Virus record (IMG/VR): IMGVR_UViG_3300005805_000211 | Location: 1-38,189 of that record | Length of the DNA: 38,189 nucleotides | From: a virus | Taxonomy: Duplodnaviria > Caudoviricetes | Strand: one strand, 5' to 3' | Shown: piece after piece, positions 7,527 through 22,446 of the stretch | How positions within the stretch are numbered: position 1 is the first letter of the stretch | How the letters are laid out: each line of letters starts with the position of its first letter | Program-made: the position numbers and the translations under genes | Notes under the pieces: model-generated | The model's database searches: none | What the model was told of the DNA's origin: nothing | What the model saw: the letters and a program-made list of their open reading frames with translations, nothing else

Positions 7527-7544
7527 TCGGTAAGTTTAACTCAG

Positions 7545-7621
7545 AAATAAACCGACTGACGGGCCACTATTAGCGGTTAGATGAAGGGAGAACCGCTCGT
7601 CGTGACCCGTCAGCCACCACA
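7545..7621 (-). ncRNA. candidate sRNA or structured leader with an anti-SD loop
   Basis: 13-bp plus 7-bp stem with G-U pairs on the minus strand, loop CUCCCUUCAUCU, followed by UUUAUUU; promoter just upstream. Confidence 0.45.
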
Positions 7622-7627
7622 AGGTTC

Positions 7628-7656
7628 ATGGTACAGCCCCATTAACAGACTAGACA
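7628..7656 (-). promoter_or_regulatory. cassette-type promoter
   Basis: TGTCTA-GTCTG-N12-TACCAT. Confidence 0.7.
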
Positions 7657-7675
7657 TCCTGTAGCATCAAATCTT

Positions 7676-7882
7676 ATGAGCAAACAGTATTCAATGTTTA
7701 ATTGTGTAGTTTGTGGATTCCCTATTGACCCGAAGTCAGCGAATGCTGAAAGACTCGGCGTGGTTTGGCTGCGCTCGAGCGGCAAAACAATTACGCGAGT
7801 AGTGGAGGAACTTCACTCATACAAGCACGAATTTTGCGATGACAAAGGCATGACAGACTATGTACAAGATCCCCTTTTCTAA
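7676..7882 (+). CDS. small putative Zn-binding protein
   Basis: CVVC and HEFC motifs; TAGCAT -10-like box just upstream (leaderless). Confidence 0.65.
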   Translation: MSKQYSMFNCVVCGFPIDPKSANAERLGVVWLRSSGKTITRVVEELHSYKHEFCDDKGMTDYVQDPLF

Positions 7883-8090
7883 ATTTGCATCAAGACTCTC
7901 AAACCTGAGAGCGGTTATCTATTGGAAGAAGTACAGCCTTCTTGCCCCACCATGTAAGCACTGCGTCTTCGAAATCACAAAGATGCCGGACATTCGTGGC
8001 CGGATGAAGTACTATCCGATTTGGGTTACGTGTACAAACCCTGAGTGGGGTGGGCCGGCAAACGACGGGTGTCAGTGGGGAAACGTTTAA

Positions 8091-8219
8091 AGTTATCGGA
8101 AGCCCCCGTACCGAATCGATGTGTGGTCCCTTCGAGCGGGGCTCTTTCTATCAATAAAAAAAGTTATCTATTAATAAAAAAAGTTATCTATTAGAGAACA
8201 GTGTCTCTAATAGATAACT
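8091..8219 (-). repeat. composite cassette element with inverted TAATAGATAACT pair
   Basis: Polar motif at 8091-8109; palindrome AGTTATCTATTAGAGA-N6-TCTCTAATAGATAACT at 8182-8219. Confidence 0.75.
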
Positions 8220-8224
8220 TTTCT

Positions 8225-8599
8225 TTAGAGCCACTCGGCTAAATCGCCATCCATAATTTCAGATGAGTCCACTCCGTTAGCTTCAGCGATTGCTTCCCAT
8301 AAATCTTCTTCAGTGAAATTGCCGTTCTCTGGAAGAAAATCATAAAAAGTGCCAGTCTTTTTACGAGGCTCAACTACTTCCACTTCTTCATCAGCAAATA
8401 AAGTTTGGAAGATTACAGGGCTATATTCGTCTTCGTGTCCCTCAATGTCTACTCCATCCCTCATGGTGTCGGTGTCCATGTCGTAAACACTTTGTGGACT
8501 CACGGATACTTCACTTACTTTGATTTTTACTTGTTGTCCAAGAAAATCTGAACACTTAATAATCATTCCCTCTTTTATTTCTTTGGCTTGAATTTTCAT
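8225..8599 (-). CDS. hypothetical acidic protein
   Basis: CAACTA leader and GAGGG SD. Confidence 0.8.
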   Translation of the reverse strand: MKIQAKEIKEGMIIKCSDFLGQQVKIKVSEVSVSPQSVYDMDTDTMRDGVDIEGHEDEYSPVIFQTLFADEEVEVVEPRKKTGTFYDFLPENGNFTEEDLWEAIAEANGVDSSEIMDGDLAEWL

Positions 8600-8653
8600 A
8601 ATTTCCCTCTCGTTGTTTAGTTGTTGTTTAGTTATTGTTTATTAAATCGATTT

Positions 8654-8947
8654 TTATACACTTAACCCTTCGGCTTTGGCTTCGTCAAATGAGAGCCAAG
8701 GGCTATCTGAGACCAAAGTTTTCATTTCTTCTAAAACAAGAAACCAGTATTCTGCTACTGATAAATCACAAAGTTGATCCTCGCTGGCAAATCCTGTATG
8801 TCCTGAGTTGGTGTAAAGATCTTTAGGCAACTCAATCTGATGAGAGAAGCACCGATTACCGTGTTCTTTGTAAAAGTATTGATTAAGTTTCAAATTATTA
8901 TCTTTTGCGTATGTTTCGCATTCTTTTCTACTTGATGATTTCTTCAT
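8654..8947 (-). CDS. hypothetical protein
   Basis: Promoter and GAGGGG SD. Confidence 0.8.
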   Translation of the reverse strand: MKKSSSRKECETYAKDNNLKLNQYFYKEHGNRCFSHQIELPKDLYTNSGHTGFASEDQLCDLSVAEYWFLVLEEMKTLVSDSPWLSFDEAKAEGLSV

Positions 8948-8976
8948 AATTCCCCTCTCATTATGTGGATGCTTTA

Positions 8977-9018
8977 ATGGTACTGGTCAAAGTACAGACT
9001 AGCCAAGTTATCTATTAG
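8977..9018 (-). promoter_or_regulatory. cassette-type promoter abutting TAATAGATAACT
   Basis: TAATAGATAAC-T-TGGCTA-GTCTG-N12-TACCAT. Confidence 0.8.
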
Positions 9019-9030
9019 TGATATATCGCT

Positions 9031-9471
9031 CTAGGTTAAGTTCCGATACTTCCAAACGTGAATCAATGGGTAATGATGAGTAGGGTTCTCTAAATCTAAT
9101 TCTTCATTATCTATATCTGGAGTGACACGAAATTTTCTCGTCTTGGTGTCCACTCCGTTATATGTATCTGGATAATTTTCTCTTACCTTATTTGCGAAAT
9201 CATTAAATTGTTTTCTGCCGATATTTGCGATTAACGCTAGTTGGCAAGCGAATAAATCTGGCTCAGTAATTTTCGGCATAGTGAGCGATAATGTCGCGCG
9301 CTTATTTCGCTCTACGTCTTTCCAATTCTTTCCAAATTGTTCCGTCAATACTTGTTTCACTTCTTTATGTTTTATTCCAAAGTGTTTTGCAATATCGCAT
9401 ACGGGTACTTCATCAAGAAACATCTCACATATGTATTTATATAATTTAGTGTTGAGCGATATCGTGGTCAT
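9031..9471 (-). CDS. hypothetical protein with possible N-terminal HTH
   Basis: VPVCDIAKHFGIKHKEVKQVL resembles an HTH. Confidence 0.7.
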   Translation of the reverse strand: MTTISLNTKLYKYICEMFLDEVPVCDIAKHFGIKHKEVKQVLTEQFGKNWKDVERNKRATLSLTMPKITEPDLFACQLALIANIGRKQFNDFANKVRENYPDTYNGVDTKTRKFRVTPDIDNEELDLENPTHHYPLIHVWKYRNLT

Positions 9472-9486
9472 ATCTAGTCTCTCAAT

Positions 9487-10107
9487 TTAGTTATCTATTA
9501 GTAATACTTCTTGTTCACTTCGGCGAGTGAATAGTGCTATGACCTCACTCTTGCAAATTGTCTTTTCTATGACTTTGGGTACATCATCACCATCAGCGAG
9601 TCGCTCGGCGAACCATTGAGCTCTATCTTTATCCAGAGTCCACGAAAATCCATCTTCGTTCTTGCCCTCGTGACATCCACGATAGACCGTAAGAGTCTCG
9701 GGTAGTGCTTTGTATTCTTCATACTCGTCAGCGTTCATAATTGCATTACGCTCGGGTCTATCTATCGTGAGTAATTCACGAAGCACGTCTTTGTCTTGCC
9801 ACTGGTTTTCAGTGCCTACACATACGTCACCTAGCAGTGTCCAATATTCAGAGTGGTTATCTATTAGGTGAGCAATCTCATCCAGCGCATTGACTCGGTA
9901 TGGTTTCTCGTGGAGATGAACATACAAACTAAATCTGCCATCCTCTAACGCCTGCTCCGCTTGTAATTTCTTTTGAGAATACATCTTGTTTATTAGTGCC
10001 ACGTCAATAATTCCGATTACGTGAACCAGTGGGTGCGCTAGACGTTTGCCGAAAATCTCGCAATCCACGAAATAGTCATTGAGGTCATCTAGTAATTGTT
10101 CGCTCAT
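9487..10107 (-). CDS. putative ADP-ribosyltransferase-fold protein (R-S-E clade)
   Basis: LTVYRG, GFSWT and EQEVLL in the canonical order. Confidence 0.65.
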   Translation of the reverse strand: MSEQLLDDLNDYFVDCEIFGKRLAHPLVHVIGIIDVALINKMYSQKKLQAEQALEDGRFSLYVHLHEKPYRVNALDEIAHLIDNHSEYWTLLGDVCVGTENQWQDKDVLRELLTIDRPERNAIMNADEYEEYKALPETLTVYRGCHEGKNEDGFSWTLDKDRAQWFAERLADGDDVPKVIEKTICKSEVIALFTRRSEQEVLLIDN

Positions 10108-10113
10108 ACCACC

Positions 10114-10220
10114 AATGTATCAGCACGTTTTCAAATTAGCAAGTTATCGGAAGCCCCCCGTATCCAGAACAAAAGACCAAGCGAAAGAAGCCCCGGCTTT
10201 GCAAGCACAATACGGGGCTT
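10114..10220 (-). repeat. composite cassette element
   Basis: Inverted repeat at 10188-10220, 20-mer at 10142-10161, variant promoter TTGCTA-ATTTG-N12-TACATT, leaderless ATG at 10107. Confidence 0.85.
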
Positions 10221-10326
10221 TATGAGGCAAAAAAAGCAAAAAAAAAGGTATGTCATCGGGTTAACATACCAGACTTACTCAGCCCGTCAGACCGCCGTCG
10301 TTTGGGTAGTTATCTATTAGGGGTGG

Positions 10327-10770
10327 TCAGAGAACGCGGATATTAACGCCTGACCATTCATGCCCTGATGCGTCACCGACCCGACGGTCTATCTCGCTCA
10401 TCGCTCCCTCAATCGCTTCCTGAATGATGTCAGTGATTTCATCTAGTCGCTCGTTCAGCACCGAGTCAGCGTCACCGTCAAGTGTTGGCACTGCGATGCG
10501 GATGGTCGCTCCGAACTCAATCGTGCCGACCGCTTCCTTGACCGTCATTGCTTCGGGTATGTCAAGCCACGCATAAATCGCTTCACGCACTGCCGTGTCT
10601 TGCCACTCGCTGTGTTGCGCACTAAAGTCAGGGTCAGACCCACATAGGTCGCTCACTCGTGCGTACCGCTCGTCAGCTGTCAAGCCACTCGGCATCGTCT
10701 CAAGTGCTTCGGTCAATTTCTCGGCGAGGGCGATGTCGCCCTCATTGGTGTACATTCCAAAATCGTACAT
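10327..10770 (-). CDS. hypothetical protein
   Basis: GAAAGGG SD. Confidence 0.8.
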   Translation of the reverse strand: MYDFGMYTNEGDIALAEKLTEALETMPSGLTADERYARVSDLCGSDPDFSAQHSEWQDTAVREAIYAWLDIPEAMTVKEAVGTIEFGATIRIAVPTLDGDADSVLNERLDEITDIIQEAIEGAMSEIDRRVGDASGHEWSGVNIRVL

Positions 10771-10796
10771 AATGTTTTCCCTTTCTTAGTTATCTA

Positions 10797-11081
10797 TTAG
10801 AGAACATCTTTCAACATTTCTTGGACTTTATCACTGACTTCCTTCAAGTCCTCAACAAGGTTGATGCTGGCAAATCCTGAGATGCCTTGTGCGAACTCAA
10901 TCATAAATTGAACTTTCTTTTGAAGGTCTTGTGATGCCATTGTAATGTCGCCGTCTTGATTGAGATTTTCAAGACTACGAACTACTTGCCTTGCCTGCGC
11001 GAACAGTTTTTCAATTTCTACTGACGCTTGAAGAAAGTTCTCGCTGTGCCATATTCCGTTGATTTTGGTTGATGTGTTCAT
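10797..11081 (-). CDS. hypothetical protein
   Basis: Promoter, CA-rich leader and GAAAGGG SD; TAA stop lies inside the 12-mer motif. Confidence 0.8.
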   Translation of the reverse strand: MNTSTKINGIWHSENFLQASVEIEKLFAQARQVVRSLENLNQDGDITMASQDLQKKVQFMIEFAQGISGFASINLVEDLKEVSDKVQEMLKDVL

Positions 11082-11111
11082 TGTTTTTCCCTTTCGTTGT
11101 GGTGTGGTGTT

Positions 11112-11370
11112 AGCGTATCACAGACGGTACAGACTAGCCACTTATCGGATGCCTCCCGTATTTTTGCAGCGAAAGTTTGAACGGGAGAAGCCCCGGCTTC
11201 GCCGTCTCAAAAGCGGGGCCTTTCCCTGACAGGGCAGAAGTGCGCTTCCGACACGGGGGGCTTCCGATAACTCGGCTGGCGCACACTTCGCTACGCTCGT
11301 GCTTGCCCACAATTTAGCCCGACTATCTCTAATAGATAACTTGGCTAGTCTGAACCCTACTAGGTATAGT
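11112..11370. repeat. bidirectional composite element (polarity switch of the array)
   Basis: Central inverted repeat at 11190-11219; degenerate minus 20-mer at 11142-11159 and plus 20-mer at 11253-11272; divergent promoters at 11140-11112 and 11342-11370. Confidence 0.9.
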
Positions 11371-11408
11371 TAAAGTGTAATAACCACCACACACAAGGGA
11401 GATAAAAA

Positions 11409-11861
11409 ATGGAATTGCTAGAAATGGCAGAACGAGTTGAGAGTGAGATAAATGACACTCTCGGGTTTGAGATAAAGAAGGCTCTACTGATGTCCGTTAC
11501 TGACGGACTATTTGGAGTTGAGTTATCAGCACCATTGGCAAATGGTGATGTCTATGAATTGCTAGAGAATAATGAAACTTTGGAATTAGCGAAACGGTCG
11601 CACACGGTCGCTATCGTCACTTGTGGTTGGGCAGCACCAATTAGTAGTGATGATGATGACGCTAACGAAGTAGCACCAAGCCAACACGCACAACGAAGGC
11701 GAGTTCGTCTAGTCGTGCTTGCTAATCGCACTAGCGTAGTAAGTGTGCTTAGGTTTGGCGATAACCCAACCGAAACAGTTATTGACGAAGGCAAGGCTCG
11801 TGGCTCGCTCGCAGACGCTATCCATACGCTTATGCGTGAGAGTGCTAACAGCCTGAACTAA
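11409..11861 (+). CDS. hypothetical protein
   Basis: AAGGGAG SD; GWAAP...PSQH..RRRVRL motif. Confidence 0.85.
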   Translation: MELLEMAERVESEINDTLGFEIKKALLMSVTDGLFGVELSAPLANGDVYELLENNETLELAKRSHTVAIVTCGWAAPISSDDDDANEVAPSQHAQRRRVRLVVLANRTSVVSVLRFGDNPTETVIDEGKARGSLADAIHTLMRESANSLN

Positions 11862-11883
11862 TCACTAATAGATAACTAATCTC

Positions 11884-11918
11884 ACGCCACGACACTTGCC
11901 CCCCGAGTGTCGTGGCGT
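11884..11918 (+). terminator. hairpin after gene
   Basis: ACGCCACGACAC / GTGTCGTGGCGT. Confidence 0.6.
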
Positions 11919-11994
11919 TGAGTTATCTATTGTGAATAACTATCTGCCCGACACTCAAAGAGAGTTTGCGCCGAGAGCCAACCGTCGGGTCGAA

Positions 11995-12211
11995 GCCCCG
12001 CGACACGCCCGTTTTGGGCGGGGCCTCCCCCTGACGGGGCGGAAGTGTGCTTTGGATCACTCACGGGGGGCTTCCGATAACTCGACTGGCTGGGTCGCGC
12101 TGATGACGGTGCGCCTAGCGTCTGCCTATCTCTAATAGATAACTCTCAAACGGTTCGCGCATTTCTAATAGATAACTATGCCCGACAAGTCTGATACAGC
12201 CGTGATAGCGT
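11995..12211 (+). repeat. composite cassette element
   Basis: Inverted repeat at 11995-12024, 20-mer at 12063-12082, two 12-mers, promoter CGACAA-GTCTG-N12-TAGCGT. Confidence 0.85.
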
Positions 12212-12246
12212 GGCTGTACCACTACTACCACACGAAGGGGCGTTAT

Positions 12247-13419
12247 ATGGATACCACTGAACTACGCGAAGTTATTGTGCCTGCTTATTTAGAAGCCGAG
12301 TTATTAGAGCGCGAGCGCGTTCTAGCAAAGCGTTGTGAGCGTATGGGCGTACCTGCGCCCGTAGTCAAAGTCACGCGCCGATTTATTGACAAGCATCTTG
12401 ACGATTTGGGTCGTGAGTGCGTCACGCCACGCATAGCGTATGTCGTTCACGGTGAGCGACCTGTATTGTCTGGTGGCTGGCAAGTAATCGCAAGCGTTGA
12501 ACATTTCCCTACGGGCAATATCGTGAGCGTTGCGCCATACGCTCGCGCATACGCGCCTACTGATTTACTACACGCGCCTGCGACCTGCGACCACTGTGGA
12601 CATAATCGCGCTCGCAAGTTCACGATAGTTGTTCGCGATAAAGACGGCGTTAGCCATAGGGTTGGTAAGGCTTGCCTGCGTGATTTTACGGGTCATAACT
12701 TGCCTGCTGTCTGGGAGATTTTTGATACTGACTTAAACGAGTGGAGTGATGACGATTTTGCGCGTAATAGTTCTACTCACTCACTCACGGAAATAGTCGC
12801 GTTATCTGTCGCGTCTATAGAAGTTAATGGTTGGCGTAGTTCTACTGACGCAGAAGGTAATCCGACAGAAGGCATTACTACGCGCAAGCGCGTTGAGAGC
12901 GCACTACGCCCTATGCGCCCTGATGACATAATCGCTGTCACTGACGAGCATTATGCTCGCGCTGTATGCGCTATTGAGTGGATTAGTGCGACCACTGATA
13001 GCGAAGGCTATATCGCTAATCTGCGTTCTTTAGTGCTGTCTGGTTCTACGGATAGCAAGCGTATGGGTTTGCTCGTATCCCTTGCCCGTTCTTACGACAA
13101 GCACCTAGAACACGCTGAGCGCAAGGCTGAGCGCGAGCGTGAACGCGCTACCGAAGTTCGCGTACCCTGCCCTATCGGGCGCGTCACGGTAATCGGCAAG
13201 GTCGTATCGGTGGACAGTAAAGATACTGATTATGGTACGCGCCACGTTATGACGGTCAAAGACGACACGGGCTTTACCGTCTGGGGTTCGCAACCTAGTT
13301 CGCTGTATCCGAGCGTTGGAGATCGTATTGAGTTCACGGCAAGCGTTGAGCGTTCAGACCGTGATGAGTGTTTTGGATTTTTTAAGCGACCGACTAAGGC
13401 TCGCCTACTCGCGTTGTAA
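12247..13419 (+). CDS. phage protein with Zn-binding motif and C-terminal OB-fold-like domain
   Basis: CDHC...R.R...VGKACLRDF; C-terminal GKVVSV...YG...VWG...GDRIEF...GFFKRP; GAAGGGG SD favours start 12247. Confidence 0.8.
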   Translation: MDTTELREVIVPAYLEAELLERERVLAKRCERMGVPAPVVKVTRRFIDKHLDDLGRECVTPRIAYVVHGERPVLSGGWQVIASVEHFPTGNIVSVAPYARAYAPTDLLHAPATCDHCGHNRARKFTIVVRDKDGVSHRVGKACLRDFTGHNLPAVWEIFDTDLNEWSDDDFARNSSTHSLTEIVALSVASIEVNGWRSSTDAEGNPTEGITTRKRVESALRPMRPDDIIAVTDEHYARAVCAIEWISATTDSEGYIANLRSLVLSGSTDSKRMGLLVSLARSYDKHLEHAERKAERERERATEVRVPCPIGRVTVIGKVVSVDSKDTDYGTRHVMTVKDDTGFTVWGSQPSSLYPSVGDRIEFTASVERSDRDECFGFFKRPTKARLLAL

Positions 13420-13521
13420 ATCATTAAGTAGAGTTATCTATTAGAGATGAGAAATCATTTTTAATAGATAACTTTTTTACACACGACCTGGCTCGATCAC
13501 TGGGTGTCCGGCACTCGGAAG

Positions 13522-13696
13522 AGCCCCGGCTTCGACGGGTTCGGCGCGGGGCTTTTCCCCAAAAGTGGGGGACTGAATACGGGGGGCTTCCGATAACTCG
13601 GCTGGCGCACACTTCGCTTCGCTTCGTGCTTGCCCACACTCTGAATAATTATCTCTAATAGATAACTCGTCTAGTCTGTACTTTAGCTAGTACGCT
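13522..13696 (+). repeat. composite cassette element (complete)
   Basis: Inverted repeat at 13522-13553, 20-mer at 13579-13598, CTGGCGCACAC block, 12-mer, promoter at 13668-13696. Confidence 0.9.
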
Positions 13697-13726
13697 AATA
13701 AACAACTACTAATGAAGGGATGAGTT

Positions 13727-14074
13727 ATGGCACTTAATAAGTCAGCACTAGATAGGTGGATTACTAGCGAGCCACAATGGCAACCTACGCTAATCACGCA
13801 AGAGAATTACGCCGATTACTTTGGCGATGACTTGCAAATTAACGAACTGAAGTGTGCGTGGGCAACTGGGCAATTCTTCAAAAATGTCGGTTGGATTGAC
13901 TACGAAGGTAGTTATGGATATTCCATATACTTCGTACCATTCTATATGTTGGATGAAGACGGCGAGATATTGGTGAACGCCGAGTCATACGATGAAGACG
14001 AAGCACTACACGAAGCCAACGAACGAAGAATTGACGCCGAGAGGCAAGCACTCAAAGAGGCAGGGGACCTGTAA
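13727..14074 (+). CDS. hypothetical protein
   Basis: GAAGGGA SD. Confidence 0.8.
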   Translation: MALNKSALDRWITSEPQWQPTLITQENYADYFGDDLQINELKCAWATGQFFKNVGWIDYEGSYGYSIYFVPFYMLDEDGEILVNAESYDEDEALHEANERRIDAERQALKEAGDL

Positions 14075-14358
14075 TGGGCAGACAATTTGCAAAGGACTTG
14101 CACGAAGGCATCGTAGAGTTTGCGCTTGGCAGGTCAGAGTCAATCCGCTTGCACTTGGCAGTTAATCACTATCCGCCCGTGCCTGCGCTTATGGTGCCTG
14201 TATGCATTAAGGCGATTGATAGTTATAACGCCAACCTGAACGGCGATGAACTTATTGAATTGCCTGAAGGCGTGTCGTGGCGAGGTAATCAGTCTGCGCC
14301 TGCGTGGGCAATCATTGAGAGTCACCACCTAGAGGAATGGTGCGACTCAGATAGTTAG
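14074..14358 (+). CDS. hypothetical conserved phage protein
   Basis: TAATG coupling; HL..NHYPPVP and IIESHHL motifs. Confidence 0.85.
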   Translation: MGRQFAKDLHEGIVEFALGRSESIRLHLAVNHYPPVPALMVPVCIKAIDSYNANLNGDELIELPEGVSWRGNQSAPAWAIIESHHLEEWCDSDS

Positions 14359-14437
14359 GCGGGCTAACTAAATTGACGGTCTATCTACTAATAGATAACT
14401 TTATGCCGATAGATAGTTACACGCCTGCGCAAGGGCG

Positions 14438-14614
14438 AGCCCCGCTCTAAGCAGTGCAAAGCCGGGGCTTTCCCCAAACAATCAACTTTGGTTTATTACG
14501 GGGGGCTTCCGATAACTCGGCTGGCGCACACTCGCTACGCTTCGTGCTTGCCCACAATCCAGCCCGACTATCTTAATAGATAACTCGTCTAGTCTGTACT
14601 TTAACTAGTACGCT
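14438..14614 (+). repeat. composite cassette element (complete)
   Basis: Inverted repeat at 14438-14469, 20-mer at 14498-14517, block, 12-mer, promoter at 14586-14614. Confidence 0.9.
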
Positions 14615-14647
14615 AATAAATAACTACTAACGAAGGGATGACTAGTA

Positions 14648-15073
14648 ATGGTAATCATAATGAACGACTTGCAGGGAGTCACAGACGGATGGGATGGCAC
14701 TATCACGAATAGTTGCAGTTGCGCCAACTATGACGAAGAGACTGACACTTACACTGCGTCTGACGAATGTTATGGCGATTGTTGGAATACCACGATTGAC
14801 TTACTAGAGAACGACTTAGGCGATTGGATGAGTAATAACCCTAATGATTGGTGGCAAGTTAATGGACTACCACTATGGAATAGGAATGTCAGTGGCTCAT
14901 TCCACGCCGACACGGTTGAAGAATTAGTTCGTGGCATAACCATTGAAGGCGAATGGACATTGCGCTATCGGCTTAACGAGAATGTCTTAGTGTTGCGCCT
15001 ATCGCACCATGACGTGCCAATGGGCAGAGAGTTCACTGTAACCTACGGCGCCGACCCTGACGCATTAGATTAG
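14648..15073 (+). CDS. hypothetical protein
   Basis: GAAGGGA SD; C-terminal SHHDVPMG. Confidence 0.8.
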   Translation: MVIIMNDLQGVTDGWDGTITNSCSCANYDEETDTYTASDECYGDCWNTTIDLLENDLGDWMSNNPNDWWQVNGLPLWNRNVSGSFHADTVEELVRGITIEGEWTLRYRLNENVLVLRLSHHDVPMGREFTVTYGADPDALD

Positions 15074-15134
15074 CGACCTATCTACTAATAGATAACTCTA
15101 TACCGATAGATAGCCACACGCTTGCGCGAGCGCG

Positions 15135-15305
15135 AGCCCCGCTCCAAGCAGTGTAAAGCCGGGGCTTTTTCTGAACAACCAACTTTGGTTTATTACGGGG
15201 GGCTTCCGATAACTTTTTTACTACCTATTTATTTTTTTTATTTATTTTTCTAAATACGAGGGTGCTTGACTTATTCTTTCACTTGCCCTAACTTAATAGA
15301 TAACT
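15135..15305 (+). repeat. composite element followed by canonical sigmaA promoter
   Basis: Inverted repeat at 15135-15166, 20-mer at 15195-15214, TTGACT-N17-TAACTT at 15266-15294, 12-mer over the predicted TSS. Confidence 0.85.
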
Positions 15306-15328
15306 ACTAAACACGAAAGGGATACACA

Positions 15329-15634
15329 ATGAAAACAGAAAGCGAACTAGAAAAGCAATTAAGAATAGACGAGCATTACAGGATATTACTAAAGGGCATT
15401 TGGCGAATAATAATTCCGTCAATAATTATTTTTCTTTTAGTTTATTTTGGTATGCCTAGACCGTCATACACTTGCCCTAATCTTTCTATAACTGTAAAAA
15501 ATGGCGACACACTTGATGGCATAGTGCGTAAACATTGTTCAGGCACTTTCACAGACGCTCTTGACGATATGGTGAGCGAGTACGGCTCAACTATCTACGC
15601 AGGGCAAATAGTCATATTGCCGACCGATAACTAA
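15329..15634 (+). CDS. membrane-anchored LysM-domain protein
   Basis: Hydrophobic TM segment, then TVKNGDTL..I...IYAGQIVILP. Confidence 0.85.
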   Translation: MKTESELEKQLRIDEHYRILLKGIWRIIIPSIIIFLLVYFGMPRPSYTCPNLSITVKNGDTLDGIVRKHCSGTFTDALDDMVSEYGSTIYAGQIVILPTDN

Positions 15635-15646
15635 TAGATAACTATT

Positions 15647-15675
15647 TGGCTAGTCTGTATCTAGCCCGATACTCT
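15647..15675 (+). promoter_or_regulatory. cassette-type promoter
   Basis: TGGCTA-GTCTG-N12-TACTCT after a 12-mer. Confidence 0.8.
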
Positions 15676-15704
15676 AAAAACAACTACTAAACGAAAGAGG
15701 AAAA

Positions 15705-16205
15705 ATGGGATATACACACTATTGGCGCAGACCACGACCTGACGGCGAGCATTACCACACTCACTCAGCGTATATGTTTGGGCAACTCGCATTTGACGCA
15801 TTAAAGATTATTAAACAAGCCGAGCAAGACGGTATCCGTATTCGTAATGGGTACGGTGAGGGCGAGCCTGAGTTTAACGAAGCATTTTTCAGCATTAACG
15901 GTGATGCGAGTGCTTTTAGTGATGACGGCAGAGACTTAGCGCACGAGACTTTTTACTGGGAAGGCATACCAACAATTAGCGAACACCGTAAAGACGAGCC
16001 CGAGACTTTTAACTTTTGTAAGACTGCCTATAAACCTTATGACGCCGTTATTACGGCGATACTCATACGAGCCAAACATATCTACGGCTCTTATGTCTCT
16101 ATCTCATCTGACGGCGACTGGCACGAGTGGCAAACAGGGCGTGAACTCTACGAGCGAGTTTTCGGCGAGGTTGCCGAGTGCCCGTTTAATAAGGTGAGCG
16201 TATGA
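15705..16205 (+). CDS. conserved hypothetical protein (MGYTHYW...HETF...FCKT..KPYD family)
   Basis: Recognisable motif series; GAGG SD. Confidence 0.85.
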   Translation: MGYTHYWRRPRPDGEHYHTHSAYMFGQLAFDALKIIKQAEQDGIRIRNGYGEGEPEFNEAFFSINGDASAFSDDGRDLAHETFYWEGIPTISEHRKDEPETFNFCKTAYKPYDAVITAILIRAKHIYGSYVSISSDGDWHEWQTGRELYERVFGEVAECPFNKVSV

Positions 16206-16357
16206 CCAGCAACCCCGAGAAAGAAAATGAACTCGCATTACTCGCACGGGCTGTATGGGGCGATAGCGCCGTAGAATTCTTGGTGGGTGCTTTATCGTCA
16301 GTAGTAAGCGAAAGTCAGTTAGACGCACTAATCACAAAACTGAAAGAGGGAATATGA
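16202..16357 (+). CDS. small hypothetical protein (51 aa, not in ORF track)
   Basis: ATGA overlaps at both ends; MTSNPEKENELALLARAVWG... Confidence 0.65.
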   Translation: MTSNPEKENELALLARAVWGDSAVEFLVGALSSVVSESQLDALITKLKEGI

Positions 16358-16479
16358 ACGCCGAGACTGAGCAAATAAAAACTACTGAGCCAGCGATAGA
16401 ACTACTATCTACGCCGTGCGTGGAGTGTGGCAAGCGACTATCGCCTGACGAGTTTTACTACGGGCACGACTGCGAATAA
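16354..16479 (+). CDS. small putative Zn-finger protein (41 aa, not in ORF track)
   Basis: GAGGG SD; CVECG...YGHDCE. Confidence 0.65.
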   Translation: MNAETEQIKTTEPAIELLSTPCVECGKRLSPDEFYYGHDCE

Positions 16480-16559
16480 AGTTTCTATCTCTAATAGATA
16501 ACTTTTTCTATCTCTATCTCTAATAGATAACTATTTGCCCAAAAAAAATAGCCAGGCTG

Positions 16560-16768
16560 AGCCCCGCCTGCGCCAAACAGCGCGGGGCTTCGACCTGAAA
16601 AAAACAGACAAATACTTTCGGCAGACACGGGGGGCTTCCGATAACTTTCGCCCACTGGGGTCGTGCGTGAAGGGGTCGCCAACATTTGCTCTTATTATTT
16701 GACGGTGGTGGAAGACCCGACTATCACTAATAGATAACTTGGCTAGTCTGTACCCTTACCGATACTAT
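16560..16768 (+). repeat. composite cassette element
   Basis: Inverted repeat at 16560-16589, 20-mer at 16627-16646, 16-mer at 16700-16715, 12-mer, promoter at 16740-16768. Confidence 0.9.
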
Positions 16769-16822
16769 GAAGGTACTCTCGTTGTACCACACAACTAGAC
16801 CCAACGAGAGTGGAGTAAAATA

Positions 16823-17251
16823 ATGAGTAAGTCCCTGTCAGTAAAGGTGAAGGTGAGTTCGCTCATCTCTGCCTTAGAAAAGGCATTGGCAGACCGTGAA
16901 AAACGGTTTGTTGAGCGAGAAAAAGAACAGGAAAAGTTTGAGAAGGCACAAGAGGCGTACAACCTTGCCGTGCTCAAACTAATCAAGAGTGGCAAAGCCG
17001 AAATCACCGAAGCAAGCAAGAACCACTGGGCAGACCGACACGACAAGAAAAAAGGAAAAACAGCGTTCAATGTGAGTGTCCTTTTGCCGAAGTCATCACT
17101 CCCCGTTGAGCCAGAAAGTCCAGACGGTTATCCAGAACATCAGTACAAGCGTGAAAAAGACGAAATTACACAAGCAATTCGTGTTCTGAAAATGACTGAA
17201 CAAACCGAAGTCTCGGCAAGCACCTACAAGAGCGTGGCTGAATACCTGTAA
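16823..17251 (+). CDS. hypothetical coiled-coil protein
   Basis: GGAG SD. Confidence 0.85.
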   Translation: MSKSLSVKVKVSSLISALEKALADREKRFVEREKEQEKFEKAQEAYNLAVLKLIKSGKAEITEASKNHWADRHDKKKGKTAFNVSVLLPKSSLPVEPESPDGYPEHQYKREKDEITQAIRVLKMTEQTEVSASTYKSVAEYL

Positions 17252-17271
17252 TCCCTAACAGGCTCAACCCA

Positions 17272-17313
17272 AAGGGGTTGGTGGGCAAATCGCCCGCCAA
17301 CCCCTTCTCTTAT
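17272..17313 (+). terminator. intrinsic terminator
   Basis: AAGGGGTTGGTGGGC / GCCCGCCAACCCCTT followed by a pyrimidine/T tract. Confidence 0.7.
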
Positions 17314-17547
17314 TGTGCCGAGTTATCTATTAGAGGTAGATAGTCAAAAGCCAAACAGCAACGAAAATAAATACTAATAGATAACTCATACCACTCTGAA
17401 AGAGTTGCGATACAGCAACGCCCGCAGTCGTGAGTTCGCCTCACGAAGTTCGTTTATGTTTGTCTCTAGGTCAGAGAGCCGTTGAAACATAAATAGTAAG
17501 TCGGACTTATCTAATGCCCCCCGTTCGTTCAGGCTGATGTTGTGAAC

Positions 17548-17745
17548 AAAGCCCCGGCTTGAACGGACTTGATGCGGGGCTTTGTCTGCGTTAAAGAAAT
17601 ACTTAGGCACGGGGGGCTTCCGATAACTGTCATCTCTGCTTTGGTTCACGCAAAAAGAATAACCGAACTGGTGTTCGTATGGCGCAAGTCTCTAATAGAT
17701 AACTGTCTAGGTATGTTGGAAAGTCTGTTATTAGGGGTGTAGGGT
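17548..17745 (+). repeat. composite cassette element with LexA box
   Basis: Inverted repeat at 17548-17583, 20-mer at 17609-17628, 12-mer, promoter TGGAAA-GTCTG-N12-TAGGGT. Confidence 0.85.
17664..17677. promoter_or_regulatory. putative LexA (SOS) box
   Basis: CGAAC-TGGT-GTTCG matches the Gram-positive/actinobacterial CGAAC-N4-GTTCG. Confidence 0.55.
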
Positions 17746-17790
17746 AGTGGCTAGCCACAACCCACACCAACTAGAAAGAAGGTAATCAAA

Positions 17791-18204
17791 ATGGCTACTA
17801 AGACAAAAGTGATAGAAGTGACAGAGAATTATCTAAAAGCCCTAACACTCCAAGAGCAAGCCGAGCAAGTTCTCGCAGAAACAAAAGAGACAATGCTCGC
17901 CGTGTTCCAAGCCGAAGGAATTAGCGAGACAGAAGTGAACGACCTTGTAGTGAAGGTTTCACCGTCATCACGCCGAACCTTTGACATTGAGAAACTCCGT
18001 GAGAAACTCACGCCTGCTTTGTTCCGTAAAGTCACCAAGCCAACAGTAGATACTCGTGCTTGGGATAGCGCACAAGATAAAGGCGAAATCAGCAAGAGAA
18101 TTATTAGCACCTGCGTAGAAGTAAACAACTTCTTTCGGGTCACAGTCAAGCCTGCGAAAGGCGCAGAGAAGCCAGCAAGCAAAAAAGTTAGCGAAGTAGC
18201 CTAA
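17791..18204 (+). CDS. hypothetical phage protein (basic, coiled-coil N-terminus)
   Basis: GAAGG SD. Confidence 0.85.
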   Translation: MATKTKVIEVTENYLKALTLQEQAEQVLAETKETMLAVFQAEGISETEVNDLVVKVSPSSRRTFDIEKLREKLTPALFRKVTKPTVDTRAWDSAQDKGEISKRIISTCVEVNNFFRVTVKPAKGAEKPASKKVSEVA

Positions 18205-18274
18205 CTTGTCAAGTTTGTAGTGGGGGTTAAATGCCCCCATTACACTAATAGATAACTACTAGAAAGGGGCAGAA

Positions 18275-18694
18275 ATGCCAACAGCATTACTACTTAAAAC
18301 AAATGGTGAAGTTCTACCAATAGAACTGACAAACAATAACGACCACGAAATTATCCACGAAAGTGTTGGGGGTTGGTTTGACTGCGTAAGAAATCACGAA
18401 AGGCGCATTGTCGGTTATGTCCACGACGAAGGGCTACTCATTGGTTTGCCAGCAAATCCAGTTTCGTCGTTTCTCTTTAATCAAGTTCTCGCAGGTGACT
18501 GCGTAATCGTTGGCTCTTTCAGCGAAACGGGCGAGTATGACGGAGAGAGCCACGAACTACCCCCTGCTTTTATGTCAAACAGGTTCGTAGAAATGGCTCG
18601 TGAAATGGGCGCAGATATAGAACTCAACGAGAAACTAAACGCTCTACTCGCAAATGTCGATACCAGTATCACCATAAGCGACTGGGTGGACTAG
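18275..18694 (+). CDS. DUF3846-like protein
   Basis: VGGWFDCV, DEGLLIGLPANPVSS and LAGDCVIVG motifs. Confidence 0.8.
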   Translation: MPTALLLKTNGEVLPIELTNNNDHEIIHESVGGWFDCVRNHERRIVGYVHDEGLLIGLPANPVSSFLFNQVLAGDCVIVGSFSETGEYDGESHELPPAFMSNRFVEMAREMGADIELNEKLNALLANVDTSITISDWVD

Positions 18695-18704
18695 TTATCT
18701 ATGA

Positions 18705-18736
18705 GAGAGTGGCACACCCCCCCGTGTGCCACTCTT
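18705..18736 (+). terminator. hairpin after gene
   Basis: AGAGTGGCACAC / GTGTGCCACTCT. Confidence 0.6.
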
Positions 18737-18784
18737 TCGCCTACCCCTAATAGATAACTTTTTCACCAACCCAACCCAACGAAC

Positions 18785-18894
18785 AAAGCCCCGCCCGACA
18801 CACCAAAAGCCGGGGCTTTAACCCAAACTAATACGGGGGGCTTCCGATAACTATTCTGTATGGGTTGGCTAGTTTGTACCTTTATCAGTATGCT
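18785..18894 (+). repeat. composite cassette element (short)
   Basis: Inverted repeat at 18785-18819, 20-mer at 18833-18852, promoter TGGCTA-GTTTG-N12-TATGCT. Confidence 0.85.
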
Positions 18895-18920
18895 GATGTT
18901 CTACTAAAAGGAGCAACGAT

Positions 18921-19160
18921 ATGACAGATAAAATTTGTACTGCTTGTGGGCGTAAAAGTTCTGAGCATATTCTCTGTAGTTATGACAAAGTCACTCGGTA
19001 TTGTCCTGGCGATAAAATTATGTCCAAAGATGAGGAGTTGGAACTCATTGACGACCTGATTAATATGTTTGATGAATTAGGTTTAACAATAGAAACCTTT
19101 AAGGAATTAGGCTTAATAGATAACAACTACCAACCACTAGAAATCAAAGGGGATAGATAA
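18921..19160 (+). CDS. hypothetical protein
   Basis: AGGAG SD; CTAC motif. Confidence 0.75.
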   Translation: MTDKICTACGRKSSEHILCSYDKVTRYCPGDKIMSKDEELELIDDLINMFDELGLTIETFKELGLIDNNYQPLEIKGDR

Positions 19161-19378
19161 TGATGATAAACACAAATCCACAGGAGTTGCGAGAAACAGT
19201 CAGTCGTGCTTACTGGCAGGGCAGACAAGAGGCACAACAAGAGATAGACCAACTCAAAGCAGAAATTGAGAGACTAAAAAATCTCCGTTTCACTGGTGCG
19301 CCCTACTCTCAAAAAGAGTTGGAGCAAATGGGCAACCCAAACTATGTGACACCAGAAGGGTGGATATCGTGGGAGTAG
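19160..19378 (+). CDS. hypothetical protein
   Basis: TAATG coupling. Confidence 0.75.
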   Translation: MMINTNPQELRETVSRAYWQGRQEAQQEIDQLKAEIERLKNLRFTGAPYSQKELEQMGNPNYVTPEGWISWE

Positions 19379-19572
19379 TTGTAAACGAATTTAATGAGTG
19401 GTGGCTTAATCATCTCGCCCAAGAAACAGAGAAGGCTAAAAAGCGAGCAGATAGGCTTTATCCAACTCGTGTTCTCAGCAATAAATTAAAAAGAGAAATC
19501 TTTATGGACTGCTTTCATTGGGCGATGTTGGAGCAACGACTGACAATGGAGCAACTTTATGATAAGAAGTAA
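19360..19572 (+). CDS. hypothetical protein (start uncertain)
   Basis: Fills the gap in the operon. Confidence 0.6.
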   Translation: MDIVGVVVNEFNEWWLNHLAQETEKAKKRADRLYPTRVLSNKLKREIFMDCFHWAMLEQRLTMEQLYDKK

Positions 19573-19822
19573 AGAAGTAATAAACGGCGACAAAGACTGG
19601 TTTATTTGCTTGTGTAAAAACGAACCACACTTAGACGGATTTTTTACTTGTCTGCCCAACGGGAGCATTACGCCACCAACGCTTAACGGTGACTGGCAAG
19701 GCGTATATTACGTTTGTGGTAAATGTAGTCGCATTATCAACCAAGACACGCTAGAGGTCGCTGGTGTCTGCTCTGAGCAAGTTGCTTTTAATAACGCCAA
19801 CTATAATTGGGATCTCTACTAA
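19559..19822 (+). CDS. hypothetical Cys-rich protein
   Basis: CLC.N...GF.TC and CGKC motifs; GGAG SD. Confidence 0.75.
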   Translation: MIRSKEVINGDKDWFICLCKNEPHLDGFFTCLPNGSITPPTLNGDWQGVYYVCGKCSRIINQDTLEVAGVCSEQVAFNNANYNWDLY

Positions 19823-20184
19823 TGATAATAGATAACTTTTTTTCGCGAATTCGCTCGCTTGTGTCCGTTATCTATCAGTGTCTCATTGCTCAAAAACGAA
19901 ACGAACGGGTAATAGGTATAAAGGCTGAAATCATCTCAGATGAGATTATGTTGGAGTCTCCCTATTCTGTAGTTGCCAAAACTAGAGAATTAGTTTATTG
20001 CTCGCTTTCTCGTCAGCCAAAATATGAATTATTTGACGAGTATGGGATTCCTGATGATGATGTCTTTCACTATTTCCCAGACATTAAGAGTGTTCTAAAG
20101 CAGTGTGTATCCACTGGCGATAATGGTTGGCGTATTTACTCTTGCGAACTAGTGTCTGCAAAAGAGGATTTGCTAGACGCCTAA
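19822..20184 (+). CDS. hypothetical protein
   Basis: TAATG coupling favours start 19822. Confidence 0.65.
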   Translation: MIIDNFFSRIRSLVSVIYQCLIAQKRNERVIGIKAEIISDEIMLESPYSVVAKTRELVYCSLSRQPKYELFDEYGIPDDDVFHYFPDIKSVLKQCVSTGDNGWRIYSCELVSAKEDLLDA

Positions 20185-20216
20185 CCCTAATAGATAACTT
20201 TTTTTTGACCGGAAAG

Positions 20217-20415
20217 AGCCCCGGGTCCAACGGAACATGCGGGGCTTCGACCTGTCGGCATAGGGGGCTGGGGGGCTTCCAATAACTCTCGGCTGTAAAT
20301 AAAATGATTTTATTTGATGACCCTGAACGCTGGGGCTTCCGATAACTCTCTAATAGATAACTTTATTTGACGGTGGTGGATGAGGTTGGCAAGTCTGTAC
20401 TTGTGGGGATATAGT
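20217..20415 (+). repeat. composite element with two polar motifs
   Basis: Inverted repeat at 20217-20246, motifs at 20270-20287 and 20332-20347, 12-mer, 16-mer at 20368-20383, promoter at 20387-20415. Confidence 0.85.
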
Positions 20416-20446
20416 GGGTCGTACCACAACTAACAAAGGATTAAAT

Positions 20447-21175
20447 ATGCCTAATTGGTGCTATCAAAACCTAGAAATACGAGGACCGAAATCTGACATT
20501 GACGAATTCTTTGACGCCATGCAACAGTCAGTTCCCGACTCTGAGGGGGTAATCCATACAACGAGCGAACTCAACCACTTATGCCCACTTGATGAAAGAA
20601 CATACGCCTACAAAACTATTACCGACAAAGACGGAAATGAAAAACTCATAAGAACCTATGCGACTATGGAAGAAAATGGCTTTGACGGCTATAACCACGC
20701 AGTAGAAGTGTGGGGAACAAAGTGGGGCGCATGCGATTTGGAAGTCAATAGTCGCAAAGGCAAATATCCACTTCATATTTACTTCACTAGTGCTTGGTCG
20801 CCTGCGTCTGGCTTAATTAGGGGCATATCCACGAAGTACCCGACTCTAATTTTCGGGCTGAGATACACAGAGGAAGCAGATTTTTTTGCTGGATACGAAA
20901 TAGTCCAAAATGGGAAAATTCGCCATACTGCCAATGCTGGGTCTGCCAACACTGTGGAAGCAGATGAGTGGTTGGAAACTCAGAAACAACTAGCAGAAAG
21001 TAATCCTGAAATCAAAGAGTGCGACTATATGGATACTTACTACGACATGTGCAATGAAGCCCGAGAACTCCGTGACGATAAATTAGAAACGGGATATCAG
21101 AAAGTTATGAATTCCTTCTCACGGTGCTACTCGGCTAAACCACCGAAAGAAAAGGTGATGACTACCCCCTTTTAA
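20447..21175 (+). CDS. YubB/DUF1281-like ferredoxin-fold protein
   Basis: MPNWC.N.L.I.G, WGTKWG and F.SAWSP motifs; AAGGA SD. Confidence 0.85.
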   Translation: MPNWCYQNLEIRGPKSDIDEFFDAMQQSVPDSEGVIHTTSELNHLCPLDERTYAYKTITDKDGNEKLIRTYATMEENGFDGYNHAVEVWGTKWGACDLEVNSRKGKYPLHIYFTSAWSPASGLIRGISTKYPTLIFGLRYTEEADFFAGYEIVQNGKIRHTANAGSANTVEADEWLETQKQLAESNPEIKECDYMDTYYDMCNEARELRDDKLETGYQKVMNSFSRCYSAKPPKEKVMTTPF

Positions 21176-21225
21176 CTTAATAGATAACTTATTAGACACA
21201 AACCCATAATCAAACAAAGGAAAAA

Positions 21226-21447
21226 ATGGATACCAAAATAGAAAAAGAATCAAAAAAAATAGCAATGCGCTTATTGCAGGAGCGACAAGCAAAAGACTGG
21301 TCGCAACAGGAACTCGCCGATAGGGCTGGTCTTGACCGAAAAACAGTCAACCGAATTGAGAACCTGCACTTCTCGCCAAGTATGGAAACCTTCTTGCGTC
21401 TATGCAATGCAATGAAAGTCCGACCACAAGAAGTCATTAAGGGCTAG
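21226..21447 (+). CDS. XRE-family HTH transcriptional regulator
   Basis: SQQELADRAGLDRKTVNRIEN...PS. Confidence 0.9.
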   Translation: MDTKIEKESKKIAMRLLQERQAKDWSQQELADRAGLDRKTVNRIENLHFSPSMETFLRLCNAMKVRPQEVIKG

Positions 21448-21460
21448 TTATCGGTTCGTG

Positions 21461-21503
21461 GTGGTCGCTATGCCTGCACCTTTCATGCTTGCATGGCGAC
21501 CAC
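21461..21503 (+). other. hairpin with anti-SD-like loop
   Basis: 13-bp stem with one G-U pair, loop CCUUUCA. Confidence 0.5.
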
Positions 21504-21508
21504 TCGGC

Positions 21509-21549
21509 TAATAGATAACTCTGCTAGTTTGTACCCTTACTGATATGCT
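21509..21549 (+). promoter_or_regulatory. 12-mer plus cassette-type promoter
   Basis: TAATAGATAACT-CTGCTA-GTTTG-N12-TATGCT. Confidence 0.8.
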
Positions 21550-21580
21550 CTACTAACCACAACTACTACAAGGAGAAATT

Positions 21581-22294: not shown

Positions 22295-22446
22295 ACGAAA
22301 ACGCCGTAAAGCAAATCACCGAAATTGTTGATAAAGCAATAGGCACAATATCGGGAAGGGAGTTGGTGGCTTCGTCTGAAATCATTGACCTACTTCTTGA
22401 TATCCGACTACTCCTACTAACAGAGACAGACAAGGAAACAGCATGA
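22291..22446 (+). CDS. small hypothetical protein (51 aa, not in ORF track)
   Basis: ATGA overlaps at both ends; MNENAVKQITEIVDKAIG... Confidence 0.7.
   Translation: MNENAVKQITEIVDKAIGTISGRELVASSEIIDLLLDIRLLLLTETDKETA

What the first reader, a model, noticed from the sequence alone, without database searches (positions are those of the whole stretch)
13579..15214. Sibling cassettes with near-identical frames but different cargo; similarity switches at the 20-mer
Seen: 13579-13723 closely matches 14498-14641 (20-mer through promoter and SD). 14381-14517 closely matches 15078-15214 (trailer CTATCTACTAATAGATAACT...inverted repeat...CAACTTTGGTTTATT and the next 20-mer). The enclosed genes (13727+14074 versus 14648) look unrelated. 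Similarity stops immediately before the 20-mer at 13579 and immediately after the 20-mer at 15214. Inference: the repeat unit runs from one 20-mer to the next, the 20-mer is the crossover or boundary, and cargo is swapped inside a constant frame.
Basis: partly seen in the sequence, partly recalled or inferred. Interest (0 to 1): 0.85.

Follow-up and report, generated by a model that had tools for sequence, protein, structure and literature searches.

The report
Shuffled gene cassettes in lake phage
Two neighbouring gene units of a freshwater phage that likely infects actinobacteria have 90%-identical flanks around unrelated genes; they lie in a 30-kb row of repeated spacers at which related phages differ by gained, lost, moved and flipped genes, likely through ordinary short-homology recombination of the kind known from T4-type phages.

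Summary
In detail: both frame pairs are 90% identical, the cargo genes are unrelated, and the site at 14498 joins one sibling's trailer to the other's leader inside 21 shared bases. The pair is one part of a 30-kb array of small genes in a 150-170 kb WhiB-bearing myophage family. Spacers are built from fixed parts: two inverted CGGGGCT boxes 16-19 bases apart, the 20-mer, TAATAGATAACT, a promoter-like stretch and a ribosome site. Relatives differ by cassette gain, loss, relocation and inversion. The 20-mer is not a unique crossover: of 44 intergenic break points 4 lie at it, 9 at the CGGGGCT box, 7 at TAATAGATAACT and 24 elsewhere. Six near-complete relatives have no integrase; 5 of 5 tested carry a Rad52-family annealing protein. 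Best reading: a variant of T4 PeSL-type shuffling, with two versions of one slot stacked by unequal crossover. Unexplained and more interesting: CGGGGCT occurs 161 times in the arrays of five genomes and once outside (21 expected), and in one relative it often sits at the centre of long palindromes.

The parts
1977..31088 (.). Whole spacer array (limits of CGGGGCT): small genes on both strands, 17 copies of the 20-mer with up to 4 mismatches (10 exact, 3119-23720), 49 exact TAATAGATAACT (2003-27268), 29 CGGGGCT
13520..13554 (.). Inverted box pair GCCCCG-N18-CGGGGC ahead of cassette A
13579..13598 (+). 20-mer opening cassette A
13599..13723 (+). Leader A: shared stretch, TAATAGATAACT (13656-13667), promoter-like AGTCTGTAC (13673) and TACGCT (13691; -10 role inferred), ribosome site GAAGGGA (13714)
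   Evidence: promoter role is inference, the sigma-70 scan does not list it
13727..14074 (+). g21, 115 aa, no Pfam or PHROG family; 8 relatives at 56-86% identity
14074..14358 (+). g22, 94 aa, coupled to g21 by TAATG; widespread phage family; closest relative (L306, 88% aa) lies in a phage stretch without the 20-mer or TAATAGATAACT
14381..14497 (+). Trailer A: TAATAGATAACT (14389), inverted box pair (14439-14468), 28-base spacer
14498..14517 (+). 20-mer at the chimeric junction: upstream like 15195, downstream like 13579 and 11253
14518..14641 (+). Leader B: mosaic, switching from 11253-like to 13579-like at TAATAGATAACT (14574); promoter-like stretch 14591-14614; ribosome site 14632
14648..15073 (+). 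g23, 141 aa, no family; homologues in the arrays of G006 (44%) and G010 (36%) and in L197-L201; start preceded by TAATG at 14646
15078..15194 (+). Trailer B: TAATAGATAACT (15086), inverted box pair (15136-15165), spacer
15195..15214 (+). 20-mer closing cassette B; followed by the unrelated T-rich leader of g24 (15329-15634)
11140..11272 (.). Symmetric form of the spacer: two opposed 20-mers share one central box pair (also 17505-17628)
11253..12082 (+). g19 cassette (11409-11861), found at a different slot in G001, L161-L164 and L172 than in the window and G002-G004

Best explanation
The two units are neighbouring cassettes in an array of small, likely early genes whose spacers repeat a kit of short motifs that likely bind proteins, and they were likely stacked by an unequal crossover inside the 20-mer, likely made by the phage's Rad52-family annealing protein. 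Shown: the frames, the unrelated cargo, the chimeric site, the array, and gain, loss, relocation and inversion of units in relatives. Inferred: (1) the motifs are kept by selection on gene control (promoter-adjacent binding sites, possibly roadblocks that shut the region off), so they are the only homology between unrelated genes; (2) short-homology recombination uses whichever motif is shared, and crossovers there leave working expression units; (3) two versions of the slot before g24, one with g21-g22 and one ending in g23, had cargo exchanged earlier at the ribosome site or TAATG overlap and at TAATAGATAACT, and were then joined in tandem through the 21 shared bases.
For: Frames 90% alike on both sides with unrelated cargo. 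Flank incongruence. Relatives at about 70-80% nucleotide identity keep the motifs only in this region and change the cargo between them; 29 of 45 window ORFs at 2-24 kb have a homologue in G001 against 16 of 16 beyond 31.5 kb. Crossovers read by eye fall in different motifs: 20-mer edge (G001 7789), right box (L033 3764), TAATAGATAACT (inversion in G004 vs G003), left box (g19 insertion). Automated count: 20 of 44 intergenic break points at a motif, 6.8 expected. Rad52_Rad22 above cut-off in 5 of 5 genomes, next to a PD-(D/E)XK exonuclease, with RuvC and SSB, in G001. Rad52-like recombinases work on short and diverged homology; minimal pairing 23-27 bp for Red-beta (PMC3945230, passages). PeSL crossovers also fall at varied points of the element (PMC2839356). 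The slot before g24 holds g22+g69 in G001-G004 and g23 two ORFs ahead of the g24 homologue in G006. A joint 13764 to 14646 in contigs of X1 and X10, with 346 bases before g23 in the X10 contig against 345 from the g21 start to its TAATG, fits a relative in which a g21 allele is coupled directly to g23 (the middle was not seen). Four-base palindromes such as ACGT, TCGA and AGCT are scarcer in the arrays than elsewhere in 5 of 5 genomes and the window, as expected of early DNA.
Against: 21 exact bases is just under the quoted 23-27 bp, and the box crossovers share only about 13. Alignment ends are drawn to conserved words, so the motif enrichment is an upper bound, and 24 of 44 break points lie at no motif. 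No relative with g23 alone in this exact frame was found; g21 has no locus in the viral collection. The Rad52 gene lies outside the window and is known only from relatives. No joint at a 20-mer was seen in contigs of 6 runs. Binding, promoter activity and timing are untested. The model does not explain why CGGGGCT is absent outside the array or centred in palindromes in G010.
Confidence: 0.6

Rival explanations
1. Motif-started recombination: CGGGGCT (or the shared GATAACT) is a nick, cut or Chi-like site for an unrecognised phage or host enzyme, kept dense in the accessory region to drive shuffling and kept out of the core genome.
For: CGGGGCT: 161 in the arrays of five genomes, 1 outside against 21.4 expected. 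It is the most enriched break-point class, 9 of 44 against 1.5. It occurs in both orientations, partly inside genes, in pairs of fixed spacing with no inner pairing. In G010, 29 of 66 CGGGGC words sit at the centre of stems of 8 or more pairs against 0.75% of random positions, which could be fold-back footprints. Tandem runs ending in GATAACT occur (window 23772-23825; L175).
Against: No candidate enzyme identified. A transcription roadblock or repressor site would also be purged from late genes. The G010 palindromes could be selected terminators with the box parked in the loop. Array limits for the count were set by eye from the motif distribution. Break points are spread over several motifs.
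Confidence: 0.17
2. Local tandem duplication of one cassette followed by cargo replacement, or gene conversion between neighbouring spacers, made the frames alike without two slot versions meeting.
For: Leader B is a mosaic of 11253-like and 13579-like halves; neighbouring sites 11256 and 12066 also share upstream sequence (82% over 73 bases). Frames are more alike within the window than to their counterparts in G001-G004.
Against: Needs two further events, each ending at the cargo borders. Both blocks have the same 10% divergence and meet exactly at one 20-mer, which one unequal crossover gives at once. Whole units do move and flip in relatives.
Confidence: 0.13
3. A dedicated site-specific system (integron- or shufflon-like) inserts and excises cassettes at the 20-mer.
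For: Sharp switch at 14498; a second case at G001 7789; the central 15 bases are nearly invariant over 44 sites; fixed geometry of boxes and 20-mer (62 of 98 sites at 35-39 bases, sites not independent); a cassette (g19) relocated as a unit.
Against: No tyrosine recombinase above cut-off in G001, G002, the window or five more genomes; no serine resolvase above cut-off in G001, G002 or the window; no Y1 transposase in 5 of 5. The 20-mer is not enriched among break points (p 0.09). The g19 move and the inversion cross elsewhere. The exact motif is missing in G006, G007, G009 and G010, whose arrays are shuffled too.
Confidence: 0.07
4. Assembly artefact: two strain variants of one slot were joined in tandem by the assembler.
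For: No listed public contig bridges 14498; depth differs between the cassettes in X1 (12.9 vs 19.9).
Against: The exact repeats at the junction are short (15+20 and 1+35 bases), below read length. Both cassettes have similar depth in X2 (26.5, 22.1), X3 (26.9, 23.6) and X9 (8.1, 5.2). The X1 excess matches a second phage at depth about 4 sharing g23.
Confidence: 0.03

Closest known systems
PeSL (promoter-early stem-loop) cassettes of T4-type phages (PMC2839356, parts 1-4 of 6 read; PMC4122927, parts 1-2 of 3 read)
   Same: About 100-base composite spacers with promoter, inverted repeat and ribosome site, crowded in a variable region of small unknown genes; insertions, deletions, replacements and displacement at the spacers; crossovers at varied points of the element; no dedicated recombinase shown.
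   Different: Not a T4-type phage and likely an actinobacterial host. The inverted repeat is a pair of fixed boxes with a 16-19 base unpaired middle, not a terminator-type stem-loop. Extra conserved words (20-mer, TAATAGATAACT). Units on both strands, with inversions. One word is purged from the rest of the genome. Circles and promoter or terminator activity are untested here.
32-bp boundary repeat of Arthrobacter cluster AU phages (10.1101/2020.01.10.891226, passages read)
   Same: Actinobacterial phage; intergenic repeat flanking genes that are deleted and translocated between relatives; recombination proposed.
   Different: Six copies around five genes of a 57-kb siphophage, against a 30-kb array with several motif classes in a 150-170 kb myophage.
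Repeated asymmetric intergenic motifs, SAS and ESAS of Microbacterium and cluster K phages (PMC7302621, passages read)
   Same: Conserved asymmetric words in short spacers upstream of genes, function unknown.
   Different: No cassette shuffling described in the passages read; simpler, one motif per site.
Stoperators of cluster A mycobacteriophages (PMC9283540, abstract only)
   Same: Many asymmetric sites near gene borders; a model for how TAATAGATAACT or CGGGGCT could silence a region.
   Different: Stoperators are spread over a temperate genome with a known repressor; here the sites are confined to one region, no integrase and no binding protein was identified.
Integron gene-cassette arrays (recalled, no paper read)
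   Same: Unrelated cargo between repeated sites; cassettes reordered as units.
   Different: No integrase, no single crossover base, each unit has its own promoter-like leader, both orientations.

Membership tests
PeSL-type shuffling spacers | Repeated intergenic element clustered in a variable region of small unknown genes | tested here: met
PeSL-type shuffling spacers | Gene gain, loss and displacement next to the elements between close relatives | tested here: met
PeSL-type shuffling spacers | Sigma-70-type early promoter in the element | tested here: inconclusive
   conserved AGTCTGTAC and TAnnnT-like stretch before the ribosome site; consensus scan 8 found vs 10.9 in shuffles, not listing these two
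PeSL-type shuffling spacers | Stem-loop acting as terminator | tested here: not met
   by shape only: 8-9 pair stem with 16-19 base middle that pairs no better than shuffled (mean z +0.51 window, -0.11 G001, +0.74 G006); not found by the terminator scan. Activity itself untested
PeSL-type shuffling spacers | Mini-circles formed between elements | not testable with these tools
   only assembled contigs available
PeSL-type shuffling spacers | T4-type phage | tested here: not met
   G001 terminase closest to psiM2 and Gordonia phages at 42-44%; two WhiB, tail sheath, baseplate J
Integron or other site-specific cassette system | Cognate tyrosine or serine recombinase | tested here: not met
   PF00589 none above cut-off in 8 records, 6 of them at least 90% complete; PF00239 none above cut-off in 3 records. 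A host enzyme or unknown fold is not excluded
Integron or other site-specific cassette system | One fixed crossover point | tested here: not met
REP or MITE-like element moved by a Y1 transposase | Y1 (HUH) transposase in the genome | tested here: not met
   0 of 5 genomes
Stoperator-type roadblock sites | Phage repressor binds the sites and stops elongation | not testable with these tools
   candidate regulators exist (HTH 21226, MarR-like 36427, Arc-like 32701, WhiB 33119); none tied to a motif
Structured RNA family | Rfam match | tested here: not met
   0 matches at gathering score over the whole window

The most novel reading that the evidence does not exclude
This phage family runs a programmed diversification zone: CGGGGCT is a cut, nick or Chi-like signal read by a still unrecognised enzyme, packed about once per kilobase into the 25-45 kb early region, shown as spaced inverted pairs in some lineages and as the tip of a hairpin in another, and removed from the core genome, so that breaks and crossovers are aimed at cassette borders without any integrase.
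Probability: 0.15. Interest if true: 0.82.

Novelty: new variant of a known kind. Interest (0 to 1): 0.45.

Why it matters
It extends spacer-mediated gene shuffling from T4-type phages to a family of large uncultured freshwater phages and gives base-level junctions for gain, relocation and inversion, so the question of homology-driven versus site-driven shuffling can be tested on defined sites. The 7-base word that is dense in the early region and absent elsewhere in five genomes points to a DNA-level signal with no known reader; finding that protein would be the real advance. The sibling pair by itself is a clear but ordinary product of such an array.

Tried and rejected
Paralogy of cargo: rejected. 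Dedicated recombinase: only weak hits, one at E 8e-4 across two stops in the window and one at E 0.02 inside a 3,700-aa frame; both rejected. Terminator reading of the inverted repeat: not supported by folding. Dif-like site: considered from memory, dropped because the bases after the 20-mer vary freely. Host or prophage link: the 18-base motif gave 1 match in the bacterial genome collection, taken as chance; host genus not determined. Three metagenome matches without flanking boxes (L152, L183, L184) were taken as chance and left out of the counts. The G001 Mantel value (r 0.76) is an artefact of overlapping windows at two tandem 20-mer pairs and was not used. The cycle count on flank types gave 0 at all four boundaries and was uninformative. 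No RNA holder listed. No joints at 20-mers in contigs of 6 runs; contigs break at these repeats and drop rare variants, so this is weak. g21 loci: none confirmed in two viral scans. g23 look-alikes in the Atlas: one unnamed cluster, no usable family. The 2,583-aa protein of G001 had no solved relative. A structure job for g21 was unfinished at four collection tries and gave nothing. Literature: TAATAGATAA in 42 papers, 30 listed, no title on phage motifs; CGGGGCT with phage 0 papers; WhiB with GATAW 0; two searches gave nothing relevant. Break-point count: alignments under 120 bases or 88% identity, ends near contig edges and ends with still-homologous flanks were dropped; 126 ends merged to 50, of which 6 lay in genes; gene calls came from a simple script.

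Full report
Observation. Similarity drops at the stated edges. The cargo genes, which I label g21 (13727), g22 (14074) and g23 (14648), are unrelated by BLASTP, by profile comparison and by DNA, so simple paralogy is out. The site at 14498 has the upstream flank of 15195 and the downstream flank of 13579; those two parent types share 21 exact bases, which bounds the crossover.

What the window is. It is a whole 38,189-base virus record. WhiB, an HTH regulator, an SNF2 helicase, DUF932 and an AAA protein are annotated; most small genes have no family. WhiB marks actinobacterial phages (PMC10914622, passages); the host is inferred from this alone. Nine of 20 listed runs hold half or more of the region's words, all nine lake or freshwater, from 3 studies, one of which may be the source. 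An exact scan for the 20-mer found 34 stretches in viral contigs, among them G001, 170,425 bases and rated complete, at about 70-80% nucleotide identity to the window. G001 encodes a tail sheath and baseplate J, so a myophage. More distant relatives of 145-154 kb (G006, G007, G009, G010) came from a DUF932 scan.

Anatomy. The window has 17 copies of the 20-mer (10 exact) on both strands and 49 exact TAATAGATAACT, all within 2-27 kb. In G001 these words are confined to the matching region. The typical spacer reads: gene end, TAATAGATAACT, an inverted pair GCCCCG-N16-19-CGGGGC, about 28 variable bases, the 20-mer, a variable leader, TAATAGATAACT, a promoter-like stretch, a ribosome site. The pair spacing is 16-19 in 12 of 13 outward pairs in the window, 11 of 12 in G001 and 13 of 14 in G006, and the middle pairs no better than shuffled sequence. 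The right box lies 35-39 bases before the 20-mer's own GGGGCT in 62 of 98 sites, with a side peak at 47-48 (10 of 98); these sites include orthologous copies. Where two 20-mers oppose each other they share one central pair (11140-11272, 17505-17628). I infer sites for DNA-binding proteins rather than RNA terminators. In G006 the 20-mer's place is taken by a G-run followed by TAGATAAGT, and G007 and G009 have their own variants, so the exact 20-mer is lineage-specific while CGGGGCT is shared.

Shuffling in relatives. Cassette maps show changing cargo between motifs, g19 at two different slots (window and G002-G004 versus G001, L161-L164, L172) and the g66-g68 block inverted in G004 relative to G003. 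Read base by base, the crossovers differ: the 5' edge of the 20-mer for a 720-base unit between G001 and G002; the right box for a two-cassette difference between L033 and G002; TAATAGATAACT for the inversion; a fourth case (G003) is complex. The g19 insertion in G001 keeps target sequence up to the left box, then a donor-type middle, which fits entry of a circle crossing at that box (inference). Leader B of the finding itself switches affinity at TAATAGATAACT. An automated count over 19 contigs gave 50 distinct break points, 44 intergenic: 9 at a box, 7 at TAATAGATAACT, 4 at the 20-mer, 24 elsewhere, against background shares of 3.5, 8 and 3.8%; only the box class and the sum are significant, and alignment ends favour conserved words. 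Cargo also travels without frames: g22's closest relative (88% aa, DNA match limited to the gene) is in a stretch lacking the 20-mer and TAATAGATAACT, while G001-type copies are 63-71%.

Enzymes. No tyrosine recombinase reached cut-off in 8 records, no serine resolvase in 3, no Y1 transposase in 5. A Rad52-family annealing protein is present in 5 of 5, in G001 beside a PD-(D/E)XK exonuclease and near RuvC. Such proteins recombine short and diverged homologies, with a minimal pairing segment of 23-27 bp quoted for Red-beta (PMC3945230, passages).

How this pair likely arose. The slot before g24 holds g22+g69 in G001-G004; in G006 a g23 homologue lies two ORFs ahead of the g24 homologue. Contigs of X1 and X10 show a joint from 13764 to 14646; in X10 the g23 part starts at base 347 of the contig, against 345 bases from the g21 start to its TAATG, and g23 is also preceded by TAATG. 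This fits a relative with a g21 allele coupled to g23, but the bases between were not shown. The simplest history is that versions of one slot with related frames and different cargo existed in close strains and one unequal crossover in the 20-mer put them in tandem. Local duplication or gene conversion remains possible.

What stays unexplained. CGGGGCT occurs 32, 37, 16, 16 and 60 times in the arrays of G001, G006, G007, G009 and G010 and 0, 0, 1, 0, 0 times outside (21.4 expected in total; limits set by eye; in G001 and G009 the whole 6-mer CGGGGC is scarce outside). In G010, 29 of 66 CGGGGC words are centred in stems of 8 or more pairs, in either orientation to the next promoter, against 1 of 34, 1 of 49, 0 of 16 and 1 of 33 in the other four. 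The arrays are also poorer in several four-base palindromes, in line with early DNA that meets restriction first; that test was prompted by earlier scan notes. A roadblock site of the stoperator kind (PMC9283540, abstract) or a cut or Chi-like site would both fit; I favour the regulatory reading and keep the second as the novel case.

Comparison and verdict. It works like the PeSL arrays of T4-type phages (PMC2839356; PMC4122927) and resembles the cluster AU boundary repeat and the unexplained motifs of Microbacterium phages. It is not a PeSL member in the strict sense: different phage group, and the inverted repeat fails the terminator shape test. I found no description of these motifs in the searched library; subscription journals are largely missing and no supplements were read, so motif tables there could exist. 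Earlier notes of this scan report similar arrays in other phage genomes; they are leads, not support. Verdict: real, a new variant of a known kind, interest 0.45.

Noticed in passing
G010 114581-136890 (L280-L281): 29 of 66 CGGGGC words sit at the centre of palindromes with stems of 8-19 pairs and variable arms, just upstream of a repeated promoter-like motif, in either orientation.
   Followed up: partly
G010 114843, 127910, 128742, 130456: Four copies of a 16-base palindrome that I recall as the parS consensus, all inside the array; none in G001, G006, G007, G009 or the window.
   Followed up: partly
G001, G006, G007, G009, G010 whole; window whole: GATC is absent from all five relatives but occurs 39 times in the window: a recent difference in restriction pressure or DNA modification.
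   Followed up: no
L175:1300-1731: A distant contig carries five 20-mers alternating with TAATAGATAACT-like units, all ending in GATAACTC, upstream of a 338-aa gene that resembles DUF932 by eye; could be a real expansion or a misassembly.
   Followed up: no
window 16692-31531: A further repeated word, TGACGGTGGTGGA, in about 8 copies on the + strand; variants dominate the arrays around g23 homologues L197-L200.
   Followed up: partly
window 12247-13419: 390-aa gene (PHROG 2319) present only in the window among the six genomes compared; one distant phage homologue is annotated RecT-like, the rest hypothetical.
   Followed up: partly
G001 114047-125131 (L299): 3,694-aa protein joining a prohead protease, ArdC-N, a zincin metallopeptidase and UvrD-like helicase pieces, next to the portal.
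   Followed up: no
G001 155108-162859 (L300): 2,583-aa protein with an exonuclease domain beside the primase-helicase; no DNA polymerase was recognised among the proteins scanned.
   Followed up: partly
G001 63000-83000 (L038-L039): About a dozen 2OG-Fe(II) oxygenase-like genes in a row, plus TauD, ferredoxin, acyl carrier protein and glutathione peroxidase genes elsewhere.
   Followed up: no
window 1-31500: Partial loss of four-base palindromes (ACGT 0.38, AGCT 0.29, TCGA 0.33, GGCC 0.29 of expected) against 0.7-0.95 in the rest of the window.
   Followed up: partly
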